Source of the DNA: a virus
Taxonomy: Duplodnaviria > Heunggongvirae > Uroviricota > Caudoviricetes
DNA: 33,080 nucleotides
Reading direction: 5' to 3' (one strand)
Virus record (IMG/VR): IMGVR_UViG_2896601577_000002
Shown here: positions 4,464 through 29,120 of the stretch, piece by piece
Layout: every line of letters begins with the position of its first letter
How positions within the stretch are numbered: position 1 is the first letter of the stretch
Translations under genes and position numbers: made by a program
The notes under the pieces: model-generated
Told to the model about the DNA's origin: nothing
Database searches by the model: none
The model's input: only the letters and a program-made list of their open reading frames with translations

Positions 4464-5140
4464 TGATTGCCTCCTTTGCGAAGCTGGGCAGCAAAGTCAA
4501 CTAACCACTCAGTCATTTCAACCTTCCCTACCAGGTCTGAACTAGGGTGCATACAGCAATCACTCTGCGCCGCTTTGAAATCCTTACACTCATATTCTTG
4601 GGCCACCAGATTTTTTGCAGCTTCTATAGCAGCATCCACCCCCTGCGCCCGGACTTCAGCCAGGAAAGCATCAGTGGTTGGCGTTTCAGGTATCTGTCTC
4701 CTCATCCGTTCTATTGCATGATTGAACCCGAAGTCTTCCGCGAGAGATACGTCATCCATATTGTCATTGTCATCCTCAATATCCCGTGATTCTGGAATTG
4801 CAGACTTTATTCCCGCATTCTCCGCTGCCAGCGCCGCGCACTTGGCTTCAAGAGCGGCAACCACTTCCTGATGGTCTTTGTACTTAACGTATGAGCCGGA
4901 GATGTCATCACCTTCGGTGTTTAGCCATGCGTCATTGCAATTCACTGCGTAGGTTCTGATGCTGATGCTCTCCCGCCCCTGACAGACGCCAGGCCAGTCA
5001 ATAAAGTATCCGCAATGCCTACCCTCAGACGTGCGCGCAGGATAAATGCCGTTATGACCCGGCAAAATATATGCTACCCATTCATCTTGCGTTGCCTGTT
5101 CCGCCGCCTCGCGCAGTGCCTGATAGTCAATCTTGCTCAC
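4460..5140 (-). CDS. Ea22-like prophage protein (paralog)
   Basis: N-terminus MSKIDYQALREAAE; 4-bp overlap with the downstream paralog. Confidence 0.65.
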   Translation of the reverse strand: MSKIDYQALREAAEQATQDEWVAYILPGHNGIYPARTSEGRHCGYFIDWPGVCQGRESISIRTYAVNCNDAWLNTEGDDISGSYVKYKDHQEVVAALEAKCAALAAENAGIKSAIPESRDIEDDNDNMDDVSLAEDFGFNHAIERMRRQIPETPTTDAFLAEVRAQGVDAAIEAAKNLVAQEYECKDFKAAQSDCCMHPSSDLVGKVEMTEWLVDFAAQLRKGGNQ

Positions 5141-20202: not shown

Positions 20203-20278
20203 GGCCCTTTAGCTCAGTGGTGAGAGCGAGCGACTCATAATCGCCAGGTCGCTGGTTCAAATCCAGCAAGGGCCACCA
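20203..20278 (+). tRNA. tRNA with CAT anticodon, most similar to tRNA-Ile2 (ileX/ileZ-like)
   Basis: Canonical cloverleaf; acceptor GGCCCTT/AAGGGCC; anticodon loop CTCATAA; T-loop TTCAAAT; encoded CCA. Confidence 0.8.
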
Positions 20279-20285
20279 TCACATA

Positions 20286-20358
20286 CCGCCATTAGCTCAT
20301 CAGGAAAGAGCGCCAGCCTTCGAAGCTGGTTGCGCGGAGTTCGGGTCCCGAAGGCGGT
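20286..20358 (+). tRNA. tRNA-Arg(TCG)-like, atypical (possible pseudo-tRNA)
   Basis: D-arm and anticodon arm are canonical (loop CTTCGAA) but the T-stem 3' strand is one nt short, position 58 is G, there is an acceptor mismatch and no encoded CCA. Confidence 0.45.
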
Positions 20359-20374
20359 TCATTATCTGTATCCT

Positions 20375-20451
20375 GCGTTGTTAGCTCAGCCGGACAGAGC
20401 AATTGCCTTCTAAGCAATCGGTCACTGGTTCGAATACAGTAGAACGCGCCA
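20375..20451 (+). tRNA. tRNA-Arg(TCT)
   Basis: Cloverleaf with anticodon loop CTTCTAA; T-loop TTCGAAT; CCA encoded; one mismatch each in acceptor and T stems. Confidence 0.7.
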
Positions 20452-20466
20452 CACTTATTTTCCCTG

Positions 20467-20490
20467 GCTCGCTTTTGCGGGCTTTTTTTT
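20467..20490 (+). terminator. intrinsic terminator after the tRNA cluster
   Basis: GCTCGC-TTTT-GCGGGC followed by T8. Confidence 0.55.
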
Positions 20491-20686
20491 AAATGTCTCA
20501 CAATTCAGGCGGTTGACTGTTGTCTGGTTTGCGGGGAGTTTGTTAAAAGAAACTGGCATGGTGAATCCCCCTGTGCGGAGGGGCAATCAGCGAGTAGGTA
20601 TATGGGATAATCGCAGATTCAGGTGCTGGTACTGAATTCACCGGGAGGCACCCGGCACCATGCAATGGCACATAGCGCCACTCTCC

Positions 20687-20722
20687 AGCCCCTCTCCGGA
20701 GGGGCTGTTTATATTGATTTTG
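20687..20722 (+). terminator. GC-rich palindromic hairpin with T-rich tail
   Basis: AGCCCCTC-TCCG-GAGGGGCT followed by GTTTATATTGATTTTG. Confidence 0.45.
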
Positions 20723-21077: not shown

Positions 21078-22391
21078 TTGGTTTCCTTGTTTATGCATTG
21101 CTGGTGATGTTCTGAAAAGTATAAATGATATTTTTGAATGTAAACCATAGAGCAGAATTATTTTTCTGATGTTGTTTATTGTTTATTTAAATGCAGGGTG
21201 GTTTATATCTCGTCTTGTAGTTTATCCATGCATATCTGCTTGATGATGAGGTTTTTATTTAAGGTATGGTTTTGTGTTTTTTCTGTATTACATGTCAGGT
21301 ATTTTAAAGAATCATTTTTCAGATGGTGGAAAGAACCATGGCATTTAAACACTATGATGTTGTCAGGGCGGCGTCGCCGTCAGATCTTGCGGAAAAGCTG
21401 ACACATAAACTGAAAGAGGGCTGGCAGCCGTTTGGTAGTCCGGTGGCCATAACCCCTTATACTCTGATGCAGGCGATTGCAGCAGAAGGTGCAGTAATCA
21501 GCGCCACCAGCAACCCGGAGTATTACTTTGTTGTGGTTCTGGCAGGGCAGTCAAACGGCATGTCGTATGGTGAAGGCCTTCCGCTGCCGGGGACATATGA
21601 CCGTCCGGACCCGCGTATTAAGCAACTGGCGCGTCGCAGTACGGTGACACCGGGCGGTGCAGCATGCAAATATAACGACATCATTCCGGCGGACCATTGT
21701 CTGCATGATGTGCAGGACATGAGCCGTCTTAACCATCCGAAAGCGGACCTGTCAAAGGGGCAGTACGGAACCGTGGGGCAGGGGCTGCATATCGCCAAAA
21801 AACTGCTGCCGTTTATACCGGCGAATGCGGGCATTCTGCTGGTTCCGTGCTGTCGTGGTGGTTCAGCGTTCACCACCGGAGCTGATGGCACATACAGTGA
21901 CGCGAGTGGTGCCTCGGAGAATTCAACCCGCTGGGGTGTGGACAAGCCGCTGTATAAGGACCTTATCGGTCGAACAAAAGCGGCACTGGAGAAGAACCCG
22001 AAAAATGTGCTGTTTGCCGTGGTGTGGATGCAGGGGGAATTTGATTTTGGCGGTACGCCGGCAAATCATGCCGCACAGTTTGGTGCGCTGGTTGATAAAT
22101 TCCGTGCAGACCTGGCGGATATGGCAGGCCAGTGCGTCGGTGGCTCTGCTGGCGGTGTTCCCTGGATATGCGGGGACACGACGTATTTCTGGAAGCAGAA
22201 GAACGAATCCACGTACCAGACGGTGTACGGCAGCTATAAAAATAAAACGGAAAAGAATATCCATTTCGTACCGTTCATGACCGATGAGAACGGGGTGAAT
22301 GTGCCGACGAACAAACCGGAAGAAGACCCGGACATTCTGAACCGCCCCGGGAATCCTGGAGACTAAACTTCCTGAGAAAGAGGTAAACAGG

Positions 22392-22718
22392 ATGACTAAA
22401 AATACTCGTTTTTCCCCCGAAGTCCGTCAACGGGCAGTCCGTATGGTTCTGGAAAGTCAGGGCGAATATGACTCACAATGGGCGACAATTTGTTCCATTG
22501 CTCCAAAGATTGGCTGTACGCCGGAGACTCTGCGTGTCTGGGTTCGCCAGCATGAGCGGGATACCGGGGGCGGTGATGGAGGGCTCACCACCGCTGAACG
22601 TCAGCGTCTGAAAGAGCTGGAGCGTGAAAATCGTGAACTGCGCCGCAGTAACGATATCCTTCGCCAGGCTTCCGCTTATTTTGCGAAGGCGGAGTTCGAC
22701 CGCCTCTGGAAAAAGTGA
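22392..22718 (+). CDS. IS629 OrfA
   Basis: 108-aa product [19 protein letters not shown]... Confidence 0.9.
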
Positions 22719-23605
22719 TGCCACTGCTGGATAAGCTGCGTAAGCTGTACGGGGTCGGACCGGTATGCAGTGAACTGCATATTGCCCCGTCAACGTATTA
22801 CCACTGTCAGCAACAGCGACATCATCCTGATAAACGCAGTGCCCGTGCGCAGCGCGATGACTGGCTGAAGAAAGAGATACTGCGCGTATACGATGGGAAT
22901 CATCAGGTATACGGTGTGCGTAAAGTCTGGCGTCAGTTGTTACGGGAAGGTATCAGAGTGGCCAGATGCACTGTGGCACGTCTCATGGCGGTTATGGGAC
23001 TTGCCGGTGTTCTCCGGGGTAAAAAGGTCCGTACGACCATCAGCCGGAAAGCCGTTGCCGCAGGCGACCGCGTAAACCGTCAGTTCGTGGCAGAACGACC
23101 TGACCAGCTGTGGGTAGCTGATTTTACTTACGTCAGCACATGGCAGGGCTTCGTCTATGTGGCGTTCATCATTGATGTGTTTGCCGGATACATTGTGGGG
23201 TGGCGGGTCTCATCGTCCATGGAGACGACATTCGTGCTGGATGCACTGGAGCAGGCGTTATGGGCCCGTCGACCGTCCGGCACGGTCCATCACAGTGATA
23301 AAGGTTCTCAGTATGTATCGCTGGCCTACACACAGCGGCTTAAGGAAGCCGGATTACTGGCATCAACAGGAAGTACAGGCGACTCGTATGACAACGCGAT
23401 GGCGGAGAGCATCAATGGTCTTTACAAAGCGGAGGTAATACACCGTAAGAGCTGGAAAAACCGTGCAGAAGTGGAACTGGCCACACTCACGTGGGTGGAC
23501 TGGTATAACAATCGACGATTGCTGGAAAGGCTGGGCCATACTCCTCCGGCAGAAGCAGAAAAAGCTTATTATGCTTCCATCGGAAACGATGATCTGGCAG
23601 CCTGA
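22715..23605 (+). CDS. IS629 OrfB transposase
   Basis: 296-aa IS3-family DDE transposase. Confidence 0.9.
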
Positions 23606-24655
23606 GTTCACAGATAAAACACTCTCCAGGAAACCCGGGGCGGTTCAATTCCGGGTATCGGTTATTACGGTTCGAAATGGCGTGACAGCTCAGCCACCTG
23701 GACGTCACAGGACAGGGCGAGCCATTTCAGTTCATGGGCTCGCCGTGGGATTATTTCCGACCGTCTGGCAACGGCGATTCTGAGCTGCGCGGGTAAGTCT
23801 TCTGCGTTTGTTAATGGTACTGCCGGGGTGGTTGTTCCAGACAGGCCGGTTACCACCTCAGAGTCTGTAATTTTTTACGATGCCAAAAAAGCTACAGACA
23901 ATCAGCTGAAACCTTATGGCTGGGACGGTATGTATGGCAGACGCACACTGGTTGATGACAGCGGCAATAAAGCTCTGCGAATTGAGAAAAATAACAGCGC
24001 GAAATCCTGGTCAATGTACTGTGATATTGCTGCAGACAAGGCAAAACTTTTACTGGAAAAAGGCGGGGAAATTGCTGTCCGGTTTAAAATCCCCGAAAAC
24101 GTCAATCTTGAGACAACCAGAAACAAGTATGCCTTTGGTTTGTACTGGCGAATAGCGGAATGGCCGGGTGAGGGTGGTGAAGGCCATCTGAGTTCTTTCT
24201 TTGTCCAGACAGATAAAGCCAGTATTAATGTTGCATACCATCATACAGTTAATCAACAAAAAGAACTTGGCACGTTTGGCGCATTCGACCATGACTGGCA
24301 TACGCTTGCATTTAAATTTAAGGGCAGTAACAGCATTAATGTTACTCCGGTGCTTGATGGTGTGGATGGACAGGCGTTTGACCTGGTGAAATGGGCCAAT
24401 ACTGCTAATGGACTCAACAGGTTTGTCATTACGGATATTACAGGTAGTGCAGAAACCTACCCTGTACTTATTGATACGGTGGAAGTTAAAGCAAACAAAG
24501 CTGGAGCAGCCGCATAATTGCTAAAAAAAGCCGCCAGCGGCAGGAATGGAAGCTGGCGGAGGTAATCCCAATGGAGAATGTAAAGAAAAGATGCTTTCGT
24601 ACATTGGTTTTTAAATGAAAACAATTCTCATTGTCAACCATAACGGTAAGAAATT

Positions 24656-25185: not shown

Positions 25186-25401
25186 ATGTACCAGATGGAA
25201 AAAATCACAACAGGTGTGTCATACACCACGTCAGCGGTGGGAACGGGCTACTGGTTCCTGCAGTTGCTGGACAGGGTTTCCCCGTCTCAGTGGGCGGCAA
25301 TAGGCGTGCTGGGGAGTCTGTTGTTTGGGCTGCTGACATATCTGACTAACCTGTATTTCAAAATCAGAGAGGACCGTCGTAAGGCGGCGCGGGGAGAGTA
25401 A
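25186..25401 (+). CDS. S: class II holin (pinholin, S21-like), dual-start motif MYQM
   Basis: 71-aa product ...[68 protein letters not shown]. Confidence 0.85.
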
Positions 25402-25405
25402 AGCG

Positions 25406-25750
25406 ATGAAGAAAAAATACGAACTGGTTGTTAAAGGGATAAATAATTACCCGAATAAGATTACTGTTACTGTGGCACTGGAAATTGGTGGGTATCCGTC
25501 ACTGTTGTTGCCAGATGTGGCGATTAGTCTTGACCGTACTGAAGATGCCACGCTGGAGTTTTACGAAGCTGAGGCGAAAAAGCAGGCGAAGCAGTTTTTC
25601 ATGGATGTTGCTGCCGGGTTATGTGAAGGGGATGGTCCGTTGCCGGAAAAGCGCCCCGTAATTTTAGAGGCGCAGGATGTGTTGATAACCTACAGAGGAA
25701 AACTACCGGGAATAATTACGGGTTCTCTGAAGACTCCACCGCTGGCCTGA
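25406..25750 (+). CDS. hypothetical protein (114 aa) between holin and endolysin
   Basis: ATG 4 nt after the S stop, with GGGGAGAG SD inside the 3' end of S; E. coli-like codon usage. Confidence 0.55.
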   Translation: MKKKYELVVKGINNYPNKITVTVALEIGGYPSLLLPDVAISLDRTEDATLEFYEAEAKKQAKQFFMDVAAGLCEGDGPLPEKRPVILEAQDVLITYRGKLPGIITGSLKTPPLA

Positions 25751-25800: not shown

Positions 25801-26334
25801 ATGAACACCAAAATCAAATACGGCCTGTCGGCTGCCGTTCTGGCGCTGATTGCCGCAGGTGCGCCTGCGCCTGAAATCCTCGACCAGTTTCTGGATGAAA
25901 AGGAAGGTAACCACACCACGGCATACCGTGATGGCGCGGGTATCTGGACCATCTGCCGCGGTGCCATCCTGGTGGATAGTAAACCTGTCGTCCCGGGCAT
26001 GAAGTTGTCGAAGGAAAAATGCGACCAGGTCAACGCCATTGAGCGTTATAAGGCGCTGGCATGGGTGGAGCGCAATATTAAAGTGCCGCTGACCGAACCC
26101 CAGAAAGCGGGTATCGCGTCATTTTGTCCCTATAACATTGGCCCCGGTAAGTGTTTCCCGTCGACGTTTTACAGACGGATTAATGCTGGTGACCGCAGGG
26201 GAGCATGCGAAGCGATTCGCTGGTGGATTAAGGACGGTGGCAGAGACTGCCGTATCCGCTCAAATAATTGCTACGGTCAGGTATCCCGGCGAGACCAGGA
26301 AAGTGCGCTGGCGTGCTGGGACATCGACAGATAA
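25801..26334 (+). CDS. R: SAR endolysin (phage lysozyme R)
   Basis: N-terminal signal-anchor YGLSAAVLALIAAGA and lysozyme core; matches the Stx-phage R type. Confidence 0.9.
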   Translation: MNTKIKYGLSAAVLALIAAGAPAPEILDQFLDEKEGNHTTAYRDGAGIWTICRGAILVDSKPVVPGMKLSKEKCDQVNAIERYKALAWVERNIKVPLTEPQKAGIASFCPYNIGPGKCFPSTFYRRINAGDRRGACEAIRWWIKDGGRDCRIRSNNCYGQVSRRDQESALACWDIDR

Positions 26335-26428
26335 GCAGAATATTTTGCTGAAAAATAAGGCATGAGCACGCGGACGGATAACACGAAATCCTGCGAACTG
26401 GCGAAACGTAAGTGAATAAAAGTAAAAA

Positions 26429-26465
26429 CCCCGTTTGTTGGCACCAAGCGGGGTTTTGTGTTTCT
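26429..26465 (+). terminator. strong intrinsic terminator downstream of R
   Basis: 9-bp stem CCCCGTTTG/CAAGCGGGG, 7-nt loop, followed by TTTTGTGTTTC. Confidence 0.6.
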
Positions 26466-26490
26466 GACCTTGAGTAAGGCAAGGGAGAAC

Positions 26491-26673
26491 ATGGCGAAGT
26501 ATAAACGAATTCTGTTGAGGTTGACCATGAAAAACGGCCTTGAACTGAAAGCGCCTGTAACTGATGACATCAGCAGAGCACTGGCTTTTGCCATTAAGTG
26601 GGTGGCGGTCGGTGTTGCTGTGTCCCCGATGCTGTATGGGCTGGCAAAACTGGTCATTGCGTTGAAATCGTGA
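26491..26673 (+). CDS. hypothetical small protein (60 aa) with C-terminal hydrophobic helix
   Basis: ATG at 26491 with SD AGGGAGA. Confidence 0.4.
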
Positions 26674-26687
26674 AGGGAGGATTAAGC

Positions 26688-26819
26688 ATGTCAGACAAAC
26701 TCATAACGCTGGCGAAGATCCTCTGTGTAATTGTCGGCATTTCATTTTCACTAATGCTGGTTGCTCTTTTTCTTTCCATGGCCTGGATGATGTTGTCTTC
26801 GTCGGGGCTGCTGGGGTGA
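26688..26819 (+). CDS. hypothetical small membrane peptide (43 aa), translationally coupled to Rz
   Basis: Perfect SD AAGGGAGG 7 nt before the ATG; stop TGA overlaps the Rz GTG start (GTGA). Confidence 0.5.
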
Positions 26820-27289
26820 ACATAAACCGAATGCTTTCCGCGTTTACCGTTATTCTGCTGGTGGTCTGTGGTGCGCTGTGGCTGGCAACAGACCATTACC
26901 GTGATAACGCCATCACCTACAAAGCGCAGCGCGATAAAAAAGCCAGAGAGCTGGAGCTGGCAAACGCAACCATTACTGACATGCAGCAGCGCCAGCGTGA
27001 TGTTGCTGCGCTTGATGCCAGATACTCAAGGGAATTAGCCGATGCGAGAGCTGAAAATGAAACTCTGCGTGCTGATGTTGCCGCTGGTCGTAAGCGCCTG
27101 CGGATCAACGCCACCTGCTCCGGTACCGTGCGTGAAGCCACCGGCACCTCCGGAATGGATAATGCAACCGGCCCCCGACTGGCAGACACCGCTGAACGGG
27201 ATTATTTCACCCTCAGAGAGCGGTTGATGACAATGCAGAAGCAACTGGAAGGGGCGCAGGAATATATCCGCACTCAGTGTATTAACTAG
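26816..27289 (+). CDS. Rz: i-spanin Rz
   Basis: Matches lambda Rz ([30 protein letters not shown]...[22 protein letters not shown]). Confidence 0.85.
27042..27227 (+). CDS. Rz1: o-spanin Rz1 lipoprotein, embedded in Rz in the +1 frame
   Basis: [17 protein letters not shown] lipobox and Pro-rich region, as in lambda Rz1. Confidence 0.8.
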
Positions 27290-27312: not shown

Positions 27313-27537
27313 ATGAAGAAATTACTGGTAACCGTAAAGCCTTTTCAGGGAACAATTCCGTTCCGTATTTTGCAGCGTGGTCGTGTTCTTGTTGAAGGTT
27401 CGTTCAGTGGTAAATGTACGCAATTACACTCCCGGACCTTTCAGGTGAATGCCACGAATGAAGAGCTAACCGTTGAGTGTACGATGAATGCCGCTAAATG
27501 CCGCATGGTATCCGCTGCATTACAGCCAGTGTGTTGA
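27313..27537 (+). CDS. hypothetical protein (74 aa) downstream of Rz
   Basis: ORF with SD GGAGA. Confidence 0.35.
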   Translation: MKKLLVTVKPFQGTIPFRILQRGRVLVEGSFSGKCTQLHSRTFQVNATNEELTVECTMNAAKCRMVSAALQPVC

Positions 27538-27906
27538 GCGACCTTATTAACCATGCGCGGTATTGTCGCCGTATCCCCGCATTAACAGAGACCGCAGCCC
27601 GACCGGGAGACTCCTCTGCGCGAGTGTGCGGGGATAATCAAAAACGATACACACCGGGGTTTACCGCGTTAACGGAGCGCGGCGTTGTCCCCTCATGGTC
27701 GCTGGTCCGGTGCGATGGTGGAAGAAACCGGACGATGTGTTACCTCGCAAGCTCTGTTATGTCATGTGTCTGATTTGTGATTTAAGTCGGATAATTGTCG
27801 TTGCCATTAAGCAGAGGATTGATGACCGACAGGGTGGCATTGTTAGAATAAGTGAACCGCCCCGGGAATCCTGGAGACTAAACTTCCTGAGAAAGAGGTA
27901 AACAGG

Positions 27907-28233
27907 ATGACTAAAAATACTCGTTTTTCCCCCGAAGTCCGTCAACGGGCAGTCCGTATGGTTCTGGAAAGTCAGGGCGAATATGACTCACAATGGGCGA
28001 CAATTTGTTCCATTGCTCCAAAGATTGGCTGTACGCCGGAGACTCTGCGTGTCTGGGTTCGCCAGCATGAGCGGGATACCGGGGGCGGTGATGGAGGGCT
28101 CACCACCGCTGAACGTCAGCGTCTGAAAGAGCTGGAGCGTGAAAATCGTGAACTGCGCCGCAGTAACGATATCCTTCGCCAGGCTTCCGCTTATTTTGCG
28201 AAGGCGGAGTTCGACCGCCTCTGGAAAAAGTGA
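27907..28233 (+). CDS. IS629 OrfA
   Basis: Identical product to copy 1. Confidence 0.9.
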
Positions 28234-29120
28234 TGCCACTGCTGGATAAGCTGCGTAAGCTGTACGGGGTCGGACCGGTATGCAGTGAACTGCATATTGC
28301 CCCGTCAACGTATTACCACTGTCAGCAACAGCGACATCATCCTGATAAACGCAGTGCCCGTGCGCAGCGCGATGACTGGCTGAAGAAAGAGATACTGCGC
28401 GTATACGATGGGAATCATCAGGTATACGGTGTGCGTAAAGTCTGGCGTCAGTTGTTACGGGAAGGTATCAGAGTGGCCAGATGCACTGTGGCACGTCTCA
28501 TGGCGGTTATGGGACTTGCCGGTGTTCTCCGGGGTAAAAAGGTCCGTACGACCATCAGCCGGAAAGCCGTTGCCGCAGGCGACCGCGTAAACCGTCAGTT
28601 CGTGGCAGAACGACCTGACCAGCTGTGGGTGGCTGATTTTACTTACGTCAGCACATGGCAGGGCTTCGTCTATGTGGCGTTCATCATTGATGTGTTTGCC
28701 GGATACATCGTGGGGTGGCGGGTCTCATCGTCCATGGAAACGACATTCGTGCTGGATGCTCTGGAGCAGGCGTTATGGGCCCGTCGACCGTCCGGCACGG
28801 TCCATCACAGTGATAAAGGTTCTCAGTATGTATCGCTGGCCTACACACAGCGGCTTAAGGAAGCCGGATTACTGGCATCAACAGGAAGTACAGGCGACTC
28901 GTATGACAACGCGATGGCGGAGAGCATCAATGGTCTTTACAAAGCGGAGGTAATACACCGTAAGAGCTGGAAAAACCGTGCAGAAGTGGAACTGGCCACA
29001 CTCACGTGGGTGGACTGGTATAACAATCGACGATTGCTGGAAAGGCTGGGCCATACTCCTCCGGCAGAAGCAGAAAAAGCTTATTATGCTTCCATCGGAA
29101 ACGATGATCTGGCAGCCTGA
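28230..29120 (+). CDS. IS629 OrfB transposase
   Basis: Identical product to copy 1. Confidence 0.9.

What the first reader, a model, noticed from the sequence alone, without database searches (positions are those of the whole stretch)
26429..26819. Strong terminator and two small membrane ORFs between R and Rz
After R there is a 9-bp-stem intrinsic terminator, then a 60-aa ORF with a C-terminal hydrophobic helix, then a 43-aa highly hydrophobic peptide with a perfect SD whose stop overlaps the Rz start (GTGA). Small membrane peptides in this position could act as antiholin or spanin modulators, or as a membrane-active exclusion factor. They are not part of the lambda or phage 21 cassettes as I know them.
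Basis: partly seen in the sequence, partly recalled or inferred. Interest (0 to 1): 0.45.

Follow-up and report, generated by a model that had tools for sequence, protein, structure and literature searches.

The report
Small membrane genes between R and Rz
Between the cell-wall enzyme gene and the outer-membrane-disruption genes of this E. coli prophage lie a terminator and two real, very common but uncharacterised small membrane-protein genes, one of which is a mobile cassette found at many places in phage late operons rather than a dedicated lysis gene.

Summary
A 9-bp (13 with A·U) hairpin terminator lies at 26425-26457. A 60-aa ORF follows at 26491-26673 and a 43-aa ORF at 26688-26819, whose TGA overlaps a GTG of the Rz frame.

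Both ORFs behave as genes. dN/dS is 0.21 and 0.43, against about 0.7-3 in shifted frames. Every orf43 allele is intact, and PGAP annotates both as hypothetical proteins. They match PHROG families 1115 and 4906, both of unknown function. They occur in about 1,600 and 1,750 of 5,426 complete E. coli genomes.

orf43 always sits directly 5' of a lambda-type Rz. It is present but unannotated in phage 933W.

orf60 belongs to a promiscuous cassette of bidirectional terminator, leader and a tail-anchored membrane-protein gene. The cassette lies next to at least five endolysin types, and also in baseplate and tail-fibre regions of Salmonella, Klebsiella and Serratia prophages. A dedicated antiholin or spanin role for orf60 is therefore unlikely.

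A promoter-like site on the opposite strand, conserved inside codons 3-12, suggests a roughly 70-nt antisense RNA. That would be a type I toxin-antitoxin-like layout, and it is untested.

Function is unknown. Interest is moderate.

The parts
25186..25401 (+). Context: class II (phage 21 S-type) pinholin gene
   Evidence: PF04971, E = 9e-33
25801..26334 (+). Context: endolysin R, a lysozyme with a hydrophobic N-terminal signal-anchor-like segment
   Evidence: PF00959, E = 5e-24, and phrog_7 endolysin. The signal-anchor-release (SAR) character is inferred from the N-terminal sequence MNTKIKYGLSAAVLALIAAGA.
26335..26424 (.). Conserved non-coding spacer after R
   Evidence: Shared at 85-92% identity with Stx phages and many prophages. 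There is no conserved ORF and no Rfam match.
26425..26457 (.). Bidirectional intrinsic-terminator hairpin. The core stem is 26429-26437 paired with 26445-26453. An A-tract lies at 26424-26428 and a T-rich tail at 26454-26465.
   Evidence: Called by the scan and folded. 70 of 74 distinct orf60-family loci carry an equivalent hairpin with an A-rich 5' flank and a T-rich 3' flank. The inner stem changes in a compensatory way.
26466..26490 (+). orf60 leader. It holds a mini-hairpin, CCTTG (26468-26472) paired with CAAGG (26480-26484), and a Shine-Dalgarno sequence GGGAG (26483-26487).
   Evidence: Read from the sequence and folded. It is conserved in E. coli and Salmonella variants.
26491..26673 (+). 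orf60: a 60-aa predicted tail-anchored inner-membrane protein, with a basic N-terminal helix and a conserved C-terminal transmembrane helix
   Evidence: phrog_1115, E = 3e-42. dN/dS is 0.21, against 0.87 and 3.3 in shifted frames. Alignments are, and the AlphaFold2 model. PGAP annotates it as WP_001151823.1 in an identical allele.
26498..26527 (-). Predicted (untested) sigma-70 promoter on the minus strand inside orf60 codons 3-12. The -35 is TGGTCA (26527-26522), the spacer is 18 nt, and the -10 is TATACT (26503-26498).
   Evidence: 9 of 12 matches. The same site is the only promoter-like call in L105 and L211 (10 of 12, with -10 TATAAT) and in L088. The -10 is TATACT or TATAAT in all 45 distinct variants, although the preceding codon encodes K, N or Q. 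There is excess synonymous conservation here.
26418..26491 (-). Hypothetical cis-antisense RNA of about 70 nt. It would cover the orf60 start codon and Shine-Dalgarno sequence and end at the bidirectional terminator.
   Evidence: This is inference from the promoter-like site plus the terminator. The fold is -21.5 kcal/mol with z = -2.7. There are no expression data. It is not an Rfam family and not among the Sakai Hfq-CRAC peaks.
26674..26681 (+). Shine-Dalgarno sequence AGGGAGGA for orf43, directly after the orf60 stop codon
   Evidence: Read from the sequence.
26688..26819 (+). orf43: a 43-aa single-helix hydrophobic peptide. Its 3' end (GGGGTGA) overlaps the start region of Rz.
   Evidence: phrog_4906, E = 2e-23. 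dN/dS is 0.43, and none of 26 alleles has an internal stop. Full-length homologues are found in 276 phage records, including 933W where it is unannotated. Sakai annotates homologues as ECs_5722 and ECs_5732.
26816..27289 (+). Rz (i-spanin). The frame opens at GTG 26816, and the likely start is ATG 26831.
   Evidence: PF03245, E = 7e-50. PGAP starts the identical-context gene at the ATG.
27042..27227 (+). Rz1 (o-spanin lipoprotein), embedded in Rz
   Evidence: PF06085, E = 1.5e-19.

Best explanation
The interval holds two separate, real, accessory small inner-membrane protein genes. Both ride in the late lysis transcript and are chained by translational coupling into Rz.

1. **orf60** is one copy of a self-contained, mobile cassette. 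The cassette consists of a bidirectional terminator hairpin, a short leader with a Shine-Dalgarno sequence, and a gene for a tail-anchored membrane protein. It is found at many junctions of late operons in temperate phages of Enterobacterales. The most frequent position is just after the endolysin gene. It also occurs between baseplate genes and after tail-fibre genes.
2. **orf43** is a single-helix peptide gene fixed to the 5' edge of lambda-type Rz. Its last codons form the Rz ribosome-binding and re-initiation region.

Neither gene has a recognisable sense promoter. The terminator in front should therefore keep them silent in the lysogen, and they would be made only when antiterminated late transcription reads through. 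This step is inferred.

Both products then insert into the inner membrane late in infection. They are dispensable passengers or modulators rather than core lysis proteins.

A conserved promoter-like element on the opposite strand suggests that orf60 translation is additionally held down by a short cis-antisense RNA. This is also inferred.
For: **Both ORFs are coding.**
- dN/dS is 0.21 for orf60 and 0.41-0.43 for orf43 in frame, against 0.7-3.3 out of frame.
- Both have strong Shine-Dalgarno sequences.
- ORF length is invariant in 276 of 276 phage hits.
- PGAP and PHROG recognise both.

**Both encode membrane proteins.** AlphaFold2 gives helices at orf60 residues 22-59 and orf43 residues 2-38. 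The orf60 transmembrane residues F33, A34, I35, K36, W37, A39, V40, G41, S45, Y49 and G50 are invariant.

**The two genes are independent modules.**
- Some loci have orf43 only (L086), ant followed by orf43 (933W, L087, Sakai Sp9 and Sp12), or orf60 only, directly before Rz (Salmonella, Sakai Sp4).
- The orf60-orf43 block is 100% identical beside Rz alleles that are 57-100% identical.

**The orf60 family is promiscuous.**
- It lies beside a SAR-type lysozyme, GH19, GH108, M15 and a PG_binding endolysin-like protein.
- It also lies between gpV and gpW, before a tail assembly chaperone, and after tail fibres.

**The hairpin travels with it.** 70 of 74 distinct variants have it, with compensatory stem changes.

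**The genes are coupled to what follows.**
- orf60 TGA is followed 14 nt later by the orf43 ATG.
- The orf43 stop lies 0-17 nt from the Rz start.
- In type-B family members, the junction TGGTGGTGA(N1-3)ATG links to Rz, a lipoprotein gene or a gpW-like gene.

**They are compatible with lytic growth.** Complete phage genomes recorded with K-12 or E. coli C as host (PhiR5_2, PhiR12_x) carry both ORFs.

**They are accessory.** Rz-like DNA is found at 18,428 places, orf43 at 4,658 and orf60 at 1,913 in the same genomes.
Against: - There are no expression, localisation or phenotype data of any kind.
- Late-only expression is inferred from the absence of a sense promoter in a weak consensus scan and from lambdoid antitermination. 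The Q gene of this prophage was not identified here.
- In P2-like baseplate contexts, which are not known to use antitermination, a strong sense-strand terminator should be polar. The hairpin's role on the sense strand is therefore unclear.
- dN/dS was computed on recombining, non-independent alleles.
- H-19B-type phages have the same hairpin followed by a different 32-aa ORF. In the R-Rz junction the hairpin is therefore not exclusive to orf60.
- The enrichment just after endolysin genes could still reflect a lysis-related function.
Confidence: 0.55

Rival explanations
1. The orf60 cassette is a type I toxin-antitoxin-like module. It would pair a small tail-anchored membrane toxin with a cis-antisense RNA of about 70-100 nt. 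That RNA would be transcribed from a promoter inside codons 3-12 and end at the bidirectional hairpin. It would block the Shine-Dalgarno sequence and start codon of orf60, a layout like SymE/SymR. The module would spread as a selfish or addictive element through phage late operons. This overlaps with the best explanation rather than excluding it.
For: - A minus-strand promoter-like site lies at the same position in the window, L088, L105 and L211. In each case it is the only such site in about 400 nt, and it scores 9-10 of 12.
- The -10 is TATACT or TATAAT in 45 of 45 distinct variants, even where the overlapping codon encodes K, N or Q. Type-B members have -35 TGGACA with the same 18-nt spacing.
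- Synonymous codon identity is 75% in this segment against 45% downstream. The rare codons CGA and AGG are fixed.
- The A-tract 5' of the hairpin is conserved in every context, which gives a U-tail on the antisense strand.
- Tandem or fragmentary copies occur in L093, L033, L040 and L084.
- The product is a hydrophobic protein of 60 aa or fewer.
Against: - No transcript data are available.
- The promoter match is only moderate, and the -35 decays in tail-fibre-context members (L091, L093).
- No promoter was found for the toxin mRNA, unlike classical type I systems.
- It is not among the Hfq-bound sRNA peaks of Sakai, although Sp4 carries a type-B copy.
- The 45 variants were selected with a pattern that fixes part of the site.
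- Conserved amino acids ([13 protein letters not shown]) explain part of the nucleotide conservation.
- Toxicity is untested.
Confidence: 0.3
2. One or both peptides are dedicated lysis regulators. They would act as an antiholin or partner of the S21-type pinholin, a releasin-like factor for the SAR endolysin, or a modulator or anchor partner of the Rz/Rz1 spanin.
For: - The position is inside the lysis cassette, co-translated with Rz.
- orf43 is found only immediately 5' of Rz. In one Rz-less cassette it sits 5' of a small lipoprotein gene.
- The orf60 family lies most often just after an endolysin gene, including four IMG/VR contigs where the next gene encodes a tail sheath.
- The transmembrane helix carries invariant small-residue positions (G41, S45, G50) that could mediate helix-helix contacts.
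- Accessory membrane proteins in this position have precedent in P2 LysA and Mu gp25. This rests on my own knowledge and on the abstract of PMC9239132 listed.
Against: - The orf60 family occurs with at least five unrelated endolysin types and at least three holin types. It also occurs in baseplate and tail-fibre regions with no lysis genes nearby.
- About 75% of Rz-like places lack orf43 and about 90% lack orf60.
- There is no similarity to any holin, antiholin, releasin (DUF2730) or spanin family.
- The similarity of orf43 to Rz transmembrane helices is not above that of shuffled sequences.
Confidence: 0.2
3. The ORFs are recombination debris. They would persist only because ribosomes must translate through them to reach Rz. 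Under this reading only the ORF boundaries matter, not the peptide sequences.
For: - The junction is highly mosaic and holds fragments. L084 has a 41-aa orf60 C-terminal piece and a 28-aa type-B piece, both with start codons and overlapping stops.
- The Rz ATG has a poor Shine-Dalgarno sequence of its own and lies 8-17 nt after the orf43 stop.
- In lambda, Rz is coupled to R by overlap.
Against: - Purifying selection acts on the peptide sequences, with dN/dS of 0.21 and 0.43.
- The orf60 transmembrane residues are invariant from E. coli to Salmonella.
- The orf60 family is conserved in contexts without Rz.
- orf43 shows no similarity to the 3' end of lambda R.
Confidence: 0.1
4. They are lysogenic-conversion or superinfection-exclusion factors expressed from the prophage, as classical morons such as bor, lom or HK97 gp15 are.
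For: - They show presence/absence polymorphism at a known moron slot. The ant gene occupies the same junction in 933W.
- The same family lies after tail-fibre genes and is flanked by terminators.
- The products are small membrane proteins.
Against: - No sense-strand promoter lies between the terminator and the start codon in any variant examined (and inspection).
- The terminator is upstream of the gene, not downstream.
- The ORFs are translationally chained to late genes.
Confidence: 0.1

Closest known systems
PHROG families phrog_1115, phrog_4493 and phrog_3246 (orf60) and phrog_4906 (orf43), with the RefSeq hypothetical proteins WP_001151823.1 and WP_001280932.1; Sakai ECs_5722 and ECs_5732
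   Same: These are direct sequence membership, with E-values of 3e-42 and 2e-23. Identical or near-identical proteins are annotated in hundreds of genomes.
   Different: The families carry no function, no Pfam or NCBIfam model, and no literature that I could find.
Type I toxin-antitoxin loci with a 5'-overlapping cis-antisense RNA, such as symE/symR. The comparison with hok/sok and zorO/orzO rests on my own knowledge and on PMC2887945.
   Same: There is a small hydrophobic protein gene. A promoter-like site on the opposite strand lies just inside the coding region. An intrinsic terminator is placed to give an RNA of about 70-100 nt covering the Shine-Dalgarno sequence and start codon. Copies are mobile and sometimes tandem, and they sit in prophages.
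   Different: The antisense RNA and the toxicity are unproven. No dedicated toxin promoter was found. The gene is embedded in, and translationally coupled to, a phage late operon. There is no sequence similarity to known toxin families.
Morons of lambdoid phages (Juhala et al. 2000, cited in PMC4104026): extra genes between conserved late genes, for example ant between R and Rz in 933W, bor and lom
   Same: It occupies the same R-Rz slot as ant. It shows presence/absence polymorphism among otherwise similar cassettes and is flanked by intrinsic terminators in tail-fibre contexts.
   Different: A classical moron has its own promoter upstream and a terminator downstream, and it is expressed from the prophage. 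Here the terminator is upstream and no sense promoter is seen.
Accessory membrane proteins of lysis cassettes: P2 LysA, which lies between the endolysin gene and lysB/lysC (my own knowledge), and the Mu gp25 releasin (PMC9239132, DUF2730)
   Same: They are small membrane-tethered proteins encoded beside endolysin and spanin genes and are not part of the holin-endolysin-spanin core. Like orf60, gp25 is a membrane-tethered cytoplasmic protein.
   Different: There is no sequence match, and Pfam returns nothing. In gp25 the transmembrane helix is N-terminal and the cytoplasmic domain is much larger. The orf60 family is not restricted to SAR endolysins or to lysis cassettes.
HnrS (EcOnc10-12) and the PasA/PasC prophage sRNAs of EHEC
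   Same: They are short, terminator-ended RNAs encoded in late regions of the same kind of prophage (PMC13502914; bioRxiv 10.64898/2026.05.13.724894).
   Different: They lie at different loci. HnrS lies between Rz and the terminase genes, at the 3' end of ylcI/ynfO. PasA and PasC lie between the esterase and holin genes. Neither overlaps the hairpin studied here.

Membership tests
Intrinsic (Rho-independent) terminator | G+C-rich stem-loop directly followed by a U-rich tract | tested here: met
   The hairpin at 26425-26457 has 13 pairs, of which 6 are G-C, and the tail is TTTTGTGTTTCTG. On the minus strand the tail is TTTTTACTTTTAT.
Intrinsic (Rho-independent) terminator | Terminates transcription in vivo or in vitro | not testable with these tools
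   This needs Term-seq or a reporter assay.
Holin or antiholin families (Pfam Phage_holin_*, PHROG 'holin') | Sequence membership in a described holin family | tested here: not met
   Neither ORF gives a holin hit in Pfam, NCBIfam or PHROGs. The neighbouring S gene does, with PF04971.
Holin or antiholin families (Pfam Phage_holin_*, PHROG 'holin') | Controls the timing of membrane permeabilisation | not testable with these tools
   This needs lysis curves of deletion mutants.
Two-component spanin (Rz/Rz1 type) | An i-spanin has an N-terminal transmembrane helix plus a periplasmic coiled-coil domain. An o-spanin has a lipobox. | tested here: not met
   orf60 has a C-terminal transmembrane helix with only about 2 residues beyond it. 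orf43 is one helix of 43 aa. Neither has a lipobox. The bona fide Rz and Rz1 follow.
Mu gp25 releasin (DUF2730) | Sequence membership in DUF2730 | tested here: not met
   There is no Pfam hit at E <= 1.
Type I toxin-antitoxin system | Small (about 60 aa or fewer) hydrophobic membrane protein | tested here: met
   The products are 60 aa and 43 aa with predicted transmembrane helices.
Type I toxin-antitoxin system | Antisense RNA that base-pairs with the toxin mRNA | tested here: inconclusive
   A conserved minus-strand promoter-like site and a bidirectional terminator are correctly placed. No RNA evidence exists. It is absent from Rfam and from the Sakai Hfq-CRAC list.
Type I toxin-antitoxin system | The protein is toxic when overproduced and is rescued by the RNA | not testable with these tools
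   This needs expression experiments.
Type I toxin-antitoxin system | Sequence membership in a known toxin family (Hok, Ldr, Ibs, TisB, ShoB, ZorO, SymE and others) | tested here: not met
   There are no Pfam or NCBIfam hits.
Moron (lambdoid phages) | Extra gene present or absent between conserved neighbours | tested here: met
   The R-Rz junction holds nothing (lambda), ant plus orf43 (933W), orf32 (H-19B), orf60 plus orf43 (the window), or orf43 alone (L086).
Moron (lambdoid phages) | Own promoter upstream and terminator downstream, with expression from the prophage | tested here: not met
   No sense promoter-like site was found, and the terminator is upstream. Expression itself was not tested.
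PHROG phrog_1115 (orf60) and phrog_4906 (orf43) | Profile match over the full length | tested here: met
   E-values are 2.6e-42 (residues 1-60) and 2.1e-23 (residues 1-43).

The most novel reading that the evidence does not exclude
The orf60 cassette would be a previously unrecognised, very widespread family of type I toxin-antitoxin-like modules that lives inside phage late operons across Enterobacterales.

- It would encode a tail-anchored membrane toxin.
- Its ribosome-binding site would be masked in the lysogen by a constitutive cis-antisense RNA.
- The 3' end of the cassette (TGGTGGTGA-N-ATG or GGGGTGA) would re-couple translation to whatever essential gene follows. This would let the cassette insert without polarity.

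Together with orf43 and the 28-32-aa peptides, this would make the R-Rz junction a nursery of membrane micro-proteins that tune or trigger envelope collapse.
Probability: 0.3. Interest if true: 0.7.

Novelty: new member of a known kind. Interest (0 to 1): 0.45.

Why it matters
- **Prevalence.** About 30% of complete E. coli genomes carry these ORFs, and so do the reference Stx phages 933W, Sakai Sp9 and Sp12, and H-19B. Yet in many phage records the ORFs are unannotated, and nothing is known of their function.
- **If they modulate lysis.** They would then affect the timing of Shiga-toxin release.
- **If orf60 is a toxin with a cis-antisense RNA.** That would add a new and abundant type I-like family. 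It would also show how small genes can colonise essential operons without polarity.
- **Annotation.** The terminator after R should be read as part of a cassette. The intergenic gap between ant and Rz in Stx phages is in fact a gene.

Tried and rejected
- **Known sRNA at the terminator.** Rfam at gathering and at E <= 10 gave only a sub-threshold rimP-leader match on the minus strand (25.6 bits against a gathering score of 47). Nothing was found in 11 related loci.
- **Identity with HnrS/EcOnc10-12, EcOnc33/52 or PasA/C.** I mapped these on Sakai. HnrS lies between Rz and the terminase genes. EcOnc33 and EcOnc52 lie at the 3' end of the esterase gene. Identity is rejected.
- **orf43 as a duplicated Rz N-terminal transmembrane helix.** Pairwise BLASTP against lambda Rz gave E = 0.008. 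An orf43 profile does not score the co-resident Rz alleles above shuffled helices. Rejected.
- **orf43 as a relic of the 3' end of lambda R.** No DNA similarity was found. Rejected.
- **Defence-system or solved-structure relatives.** PADLOC gave no hits, and the only PDB matches were non-significant (E = 0.42 and 6).
- **A small ORF in the spacer (26363-26416, 17 aa).** It is not conserved as an ORF in relatives.
- **Literature.** I searched for genes between R and Rz and for the locus tags and accessions. Nothing relevant was found.
- **Supplementary transcription-start data for Sakai (PMC7547250).** These are not held.
- **Lost scans.** Two collection scans failed because of a one-base error in my DNA pattern. 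The earlier genome-contig scan also found nothing. Taxonomic breadth therefore rests on protein hits only.
Full report
**Context.** The window is an E. coli lambdoid prophage. It carries two IS629 copies, three tRNA genes and a lysis cassette.
- The cassette has a phage-21-type pinholin gene at 25186-25401 and a DUF1327/YdfR gene at 25406-25750.
- It has a lysozyme gene R at 25801-26334 whose product has a hydrophobic N-terminus.
- Rz runs from 26816 or 26831 to 27289, with Rz1 embedded at 27042-27227.

**Observation.**
- The hairpin at 26425-26457 is called by the consensus scan. It has an A-tract on one side and a T-tract on the other, so it is bidirectional.
- orf60 (26491-26673) and orf43 (26688-26819) both have good Shine-Dalgarno sequences.
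- The orf43 TGA overlaps a GTG that opens the Rz frame. The ATG used by PGAP for Rz is 12 nt further on.

**Are they genes?** Yes, with high confidence.
- Across unique alleles from the collected loci, orf60 has dN/dS 0.21, against 0.87 and 3.3 in the shifted frames. Its variable sites by codon position are 24, 13 and 44.
- orf43 has dN/dS 0.41-0.43, against 0.7-1.8 in the shifted frames. Rz measured the same way gives 0.42 and R gives 0.11.
- None of 26 orf43 alleles has an internal stop.
- tblastn finds full-length orf43 in 276 of 276 matching phage records.
- PGAP annotates both as hypothetical proteins. They match phrog_1115 and phrog_4906, both 'unknown function'.
- Pfam, NCBIfam, PADLOC and PDB give nothing.
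- AlphaFold2 predicts for orf60 a basic amphipathic helix (residues 2-15) and a long helix (22-59). For orf43 it predicts a single helix (2-38).
- By the positive-inside rule, orf60 should be tail-anchored with its N-terminus in the cytoplasm. This is inference.

**Prevalence.**
- orf60 DNA is found in 1,598 of 5,426 complete E. coli genomes, at 1,913 places.
- orf43 is found in 1,750 genomes, at 4,658 places and up to 11 per genome.
- Rz-like DNA is found in 5,198 genomes, at 18,428 places.
- Most Rz copies therefore lack both ORFs, which makes them accessory.
- Complete phage genomes recorded with K-12 or E. coli C as host (PhiR5_2, PhiR12_x) carry both.

**orf43 is tied to Rz.**
- It lies 0-17 nt upstream of Rz whatever precedes it. 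That can be orf60 (the window), ant (933W, Sakai Sp9 and Sp12, L087), or only the spacer (L086).
- In 933W it fills the 'intergenic' gap 27438-27569 and is unannotated. Sakai's re-annotation lists it as ECs_5722 and ECs_5732.
- In ant-type loci a start five codons further upstream overlaps the ant stop. The chain ant, orf43, Rz is therefore translationally coupled.
- The last codons of orf43 (GGGGTGA) are what one phage record annotates as the Rz ribosome-binding site.

**orf60 is a promiscuous cassette.**
- Homologues extend to E. marmotae, Shigella, Salmonella, Klebsiella and Serratia.
- In Salmonella the gene sits directly before Rz without orf43. There it lies behind P22-type ant, a GH19 endolysin or an HP1-holin/lysozyme pair.
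- In E. coli it also follows GH108 and M15 endolysins.
- Other family members lie in quite different places:
  - between a PG_binding endolysin-like gene and a tail-sheath gene;
  - between baseplate genes gpV and gpW;
  - before a tail assembly chaperone;
  - after tail-fibre or fibre-assembly genes.
- A dedicated antiholin, releasin or spanin-partner role is hard to reconcile with this spread. The position after an endolysin is nevertheless clearly the commonest.

**The terminator travels with orf60.**
- In every context a hairpin of the form AAAA-CCCCG...CGGGG-TTTT lies 25-70 nt upstream of the start codon.
- Of 74 distinct combinations of upstream region and gene, 70 have it. The inner stem differs in a compensatory way (CCCCGTTTG, CCCCGATTGC, CCCCGAACG, CCCCGGCTG, CCCCGACTG, GCCCCGAAC). 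Both the A-rich 5' flank and the T-rich 3' flank are kept.
- 933W, which has ant instead of orf60, lacks this hairpin.
- H-19B and at least 41 Stx phage records keep it, but it is followed there by a different, unannotated 32-aa hydrophobic ORF ending in RWW.

**A nucleotide-level signal inside orf60.**
- Codons 4-17 (TATAAACGAATTCTGTTGAGGTTGACYATGAAAAACGG) are almost invariant in DNA from E. coli to Klebsiella and Serratia, while the transmembrane part diverges widely.
- Among codons encoding the same amino acid, 75% are identical here against 45% downstream. Pooled over 11 pairs, Fisher's test gives p about 1e-7. The pairs are not independent, so this is indicative only. The rare codons CGA and AGG are fixed.
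- On the minus strand this segment reads T(A/G)GTCA-N18-TATA(C/A)T.
- It is the only promoter-like site the scan finds in about 400 nt around the gene in L088, L105 and L211. It scores 9-10 of 12, and in the window it scores 9 of 12.
- The -10 stays TATACT or TATAAT in 45 of 45 distinct variants, although the overlapping codon encodes K, N or Q.
- The synonymous changes that do occur fall in the spacer.
- A transcript from this site would start at about the orf60 start codon. It would run antisense across the Shine-Dalgarno sequence and end at the bidirectional hairpin. It would be about 70 nt in the window (-21.5 kcal/mol, z = -2.7) and 95-100 nt in Salmonella, Sp4 and Klebsiella.
- This is the layout of SymE/SymR-type type I toxin-antitoxin loci. 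I could find no RNA evidence. The site is not in Rfam and not among the Hfq-bound sRNA candidates of Sakai. The transcription-start data that would settle it are not held.

**The junction as a whole.** The R-Rz junction of 21/Stx-type cassettes is a mosaic of small single-helix ORFs chained by overlapping stops and starts.
- L084 has, after the terminator, a 31-aa ORF, orf43, a 41-aa orf60 C-terminal piece starting at the GTGA overlap, a 28-aa type-B fragment, and then Rz.
- L033 and L040 have orf60, orf43 and an orf60 C-terminal piece.
- Type-B family members end in ...RWW, with the junction TGGTGGTGA(N1-3)ATG. This junction links them to Rz, to a 60-aa lipoprotein gene, or to a gpW-like gene.
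- This looks like a built-in re-initiation signal that avoids polarity on the downstream gene. That reading is inference.

**Verdict.**
The ORFs are real, non-canonical small membrane-protein genes. They are two independent modules, and orf60 is not lysis-specific.
- The best-supported description is accessory membrane micro-proteins riding the late transcript: orf43 as an Rz-coupled leader peptide gene, and orf60 as a mobile cassette.
- The most interesting reading not excluded is a new type I toxin-antitoxin-like family. I give it about 0.3.
- The genes are already catalogued as hypothetical proteins, so this is a new, uncharacterised member of known kinds of element, not a new kind of system.

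Noticed in passing
L098 (phage 933W, AF125520) 2501-2632, equal to record 27438-27569; also L104 4827-4973 and L101 3612-3758: The 153-nt 'intergenic' gap between ant and Rz in phage 933W is an intact orf43 homologue, 67% identical, that the record does not annotate. Sakai annotates the same gene as ECs_5722 and ECs_5732. In most of the 276 phage records with a match, nothing is annotated under it.
   Followed up: yes
L224 (phage H-19B, AF034975) 1095-1197: An unannotated 32-aa hydrophobic ORF (MAEKLSTWKFILIWLVFVIMASGYFIGQIRWW) lies between the same terminator and Rz. The same layout is found in at least 41 Stx1a, Stx2a and Stx2c phage records. The ORF resembles the 31-aa ORF of L084 (weak phrog_6632 match).
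   Followed up: partly
L085 2883-3065 and L100 2655-2837: These are lysis cassettes (two holin genes plus a GH108 or M15 endolysin) in which no Rz or Rz1 was detected. A 60-aa lipoprotein gene (phrog_7528, lipobox LLVGC) follows the orf60-family gene where Rz would be. It might be an unrecognised outer-membrane lysis component.
   Followed up: partly
L084 2640-3145: Four translationally coupled small transmembrane ORFs (31 aa, orf43, a 41-aa orf60 C-terminal piece, and a 28-aa type-B fragment) lie between the terminator and Rz. PGAP annotates three of them.
   Followed up: partly
L103 5110-5266 (minus strand), L100 2645-2660, L105 3660-3680, L224 1185-1200: Type-B orf60-family genes end in ...RWW with the junction TGGTGGTGA(N1-3)ATG, whatever gene follows (Rz, a lipoprotein gene, or a gpW-like baseplate gene). 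This looks like a portable translational re-initiation signal.
   Followed up: partly
L088 3985-4012, L089, L095 and L103 (Sakai Sp4): The Salmonella and Sp4 leaders carry a 25-nt insert. It holds an 8-codon mini-ORF (ATG TGT AGG GAG GTG TGT TCC CTG TGA) whose stop overlaps the GTG start of the orf60-family gene.
   Followed up: no
window 25406-25750: A DUF1327/YdfR-family gene (114 aa) lies between the holin and endolysin genes. This is another non-canonical, uncharacterised passenger of the lysis cassette, present in many but not all related loci.
   Followed up: no
window 27313-27537: A 74-aa ORF directly after Rz matches part of phrog_2571 (unknown function). It is conserved in a subset of related loci and PGAP annotates it as a hypothetical protein.
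   Followed up: no
window 21323-24517 and 27907-29120: There are two IS629/IS1203 copies, with ALIL frameshift pseudoknots at 22673-22789 and 28188-28304. One splits a nanS-p-type sialate esterase gene into a SASA part (21323-22366) and a DUF6645 part (23828-24517). The other follows the lysis cassette.
   Followed up: partly
window 11254-11439 and 20203-20716: Rfam finds isrK and C4 antisense RNA (P1/P7-type immunity RNAs) at 11254-11439. It also finds three tRNA genes followed by STnc100 at 20203-20716, downstream of a DNA methylase gene.
   Followed up: no
L101 2547-2774 (Sakai 2234046-2234273): The published sRNA HnrS (EcOnc10) maps to the 3' end of the ylcI/ynfO-family gene, between Rz and the terminase genes, on the strand opposite to the late genes. 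In its H1 relative (L001) that gene lies about 0.9 kb downstream of Rz. The window itself was not checked for hnrS.
   Followed up: partly
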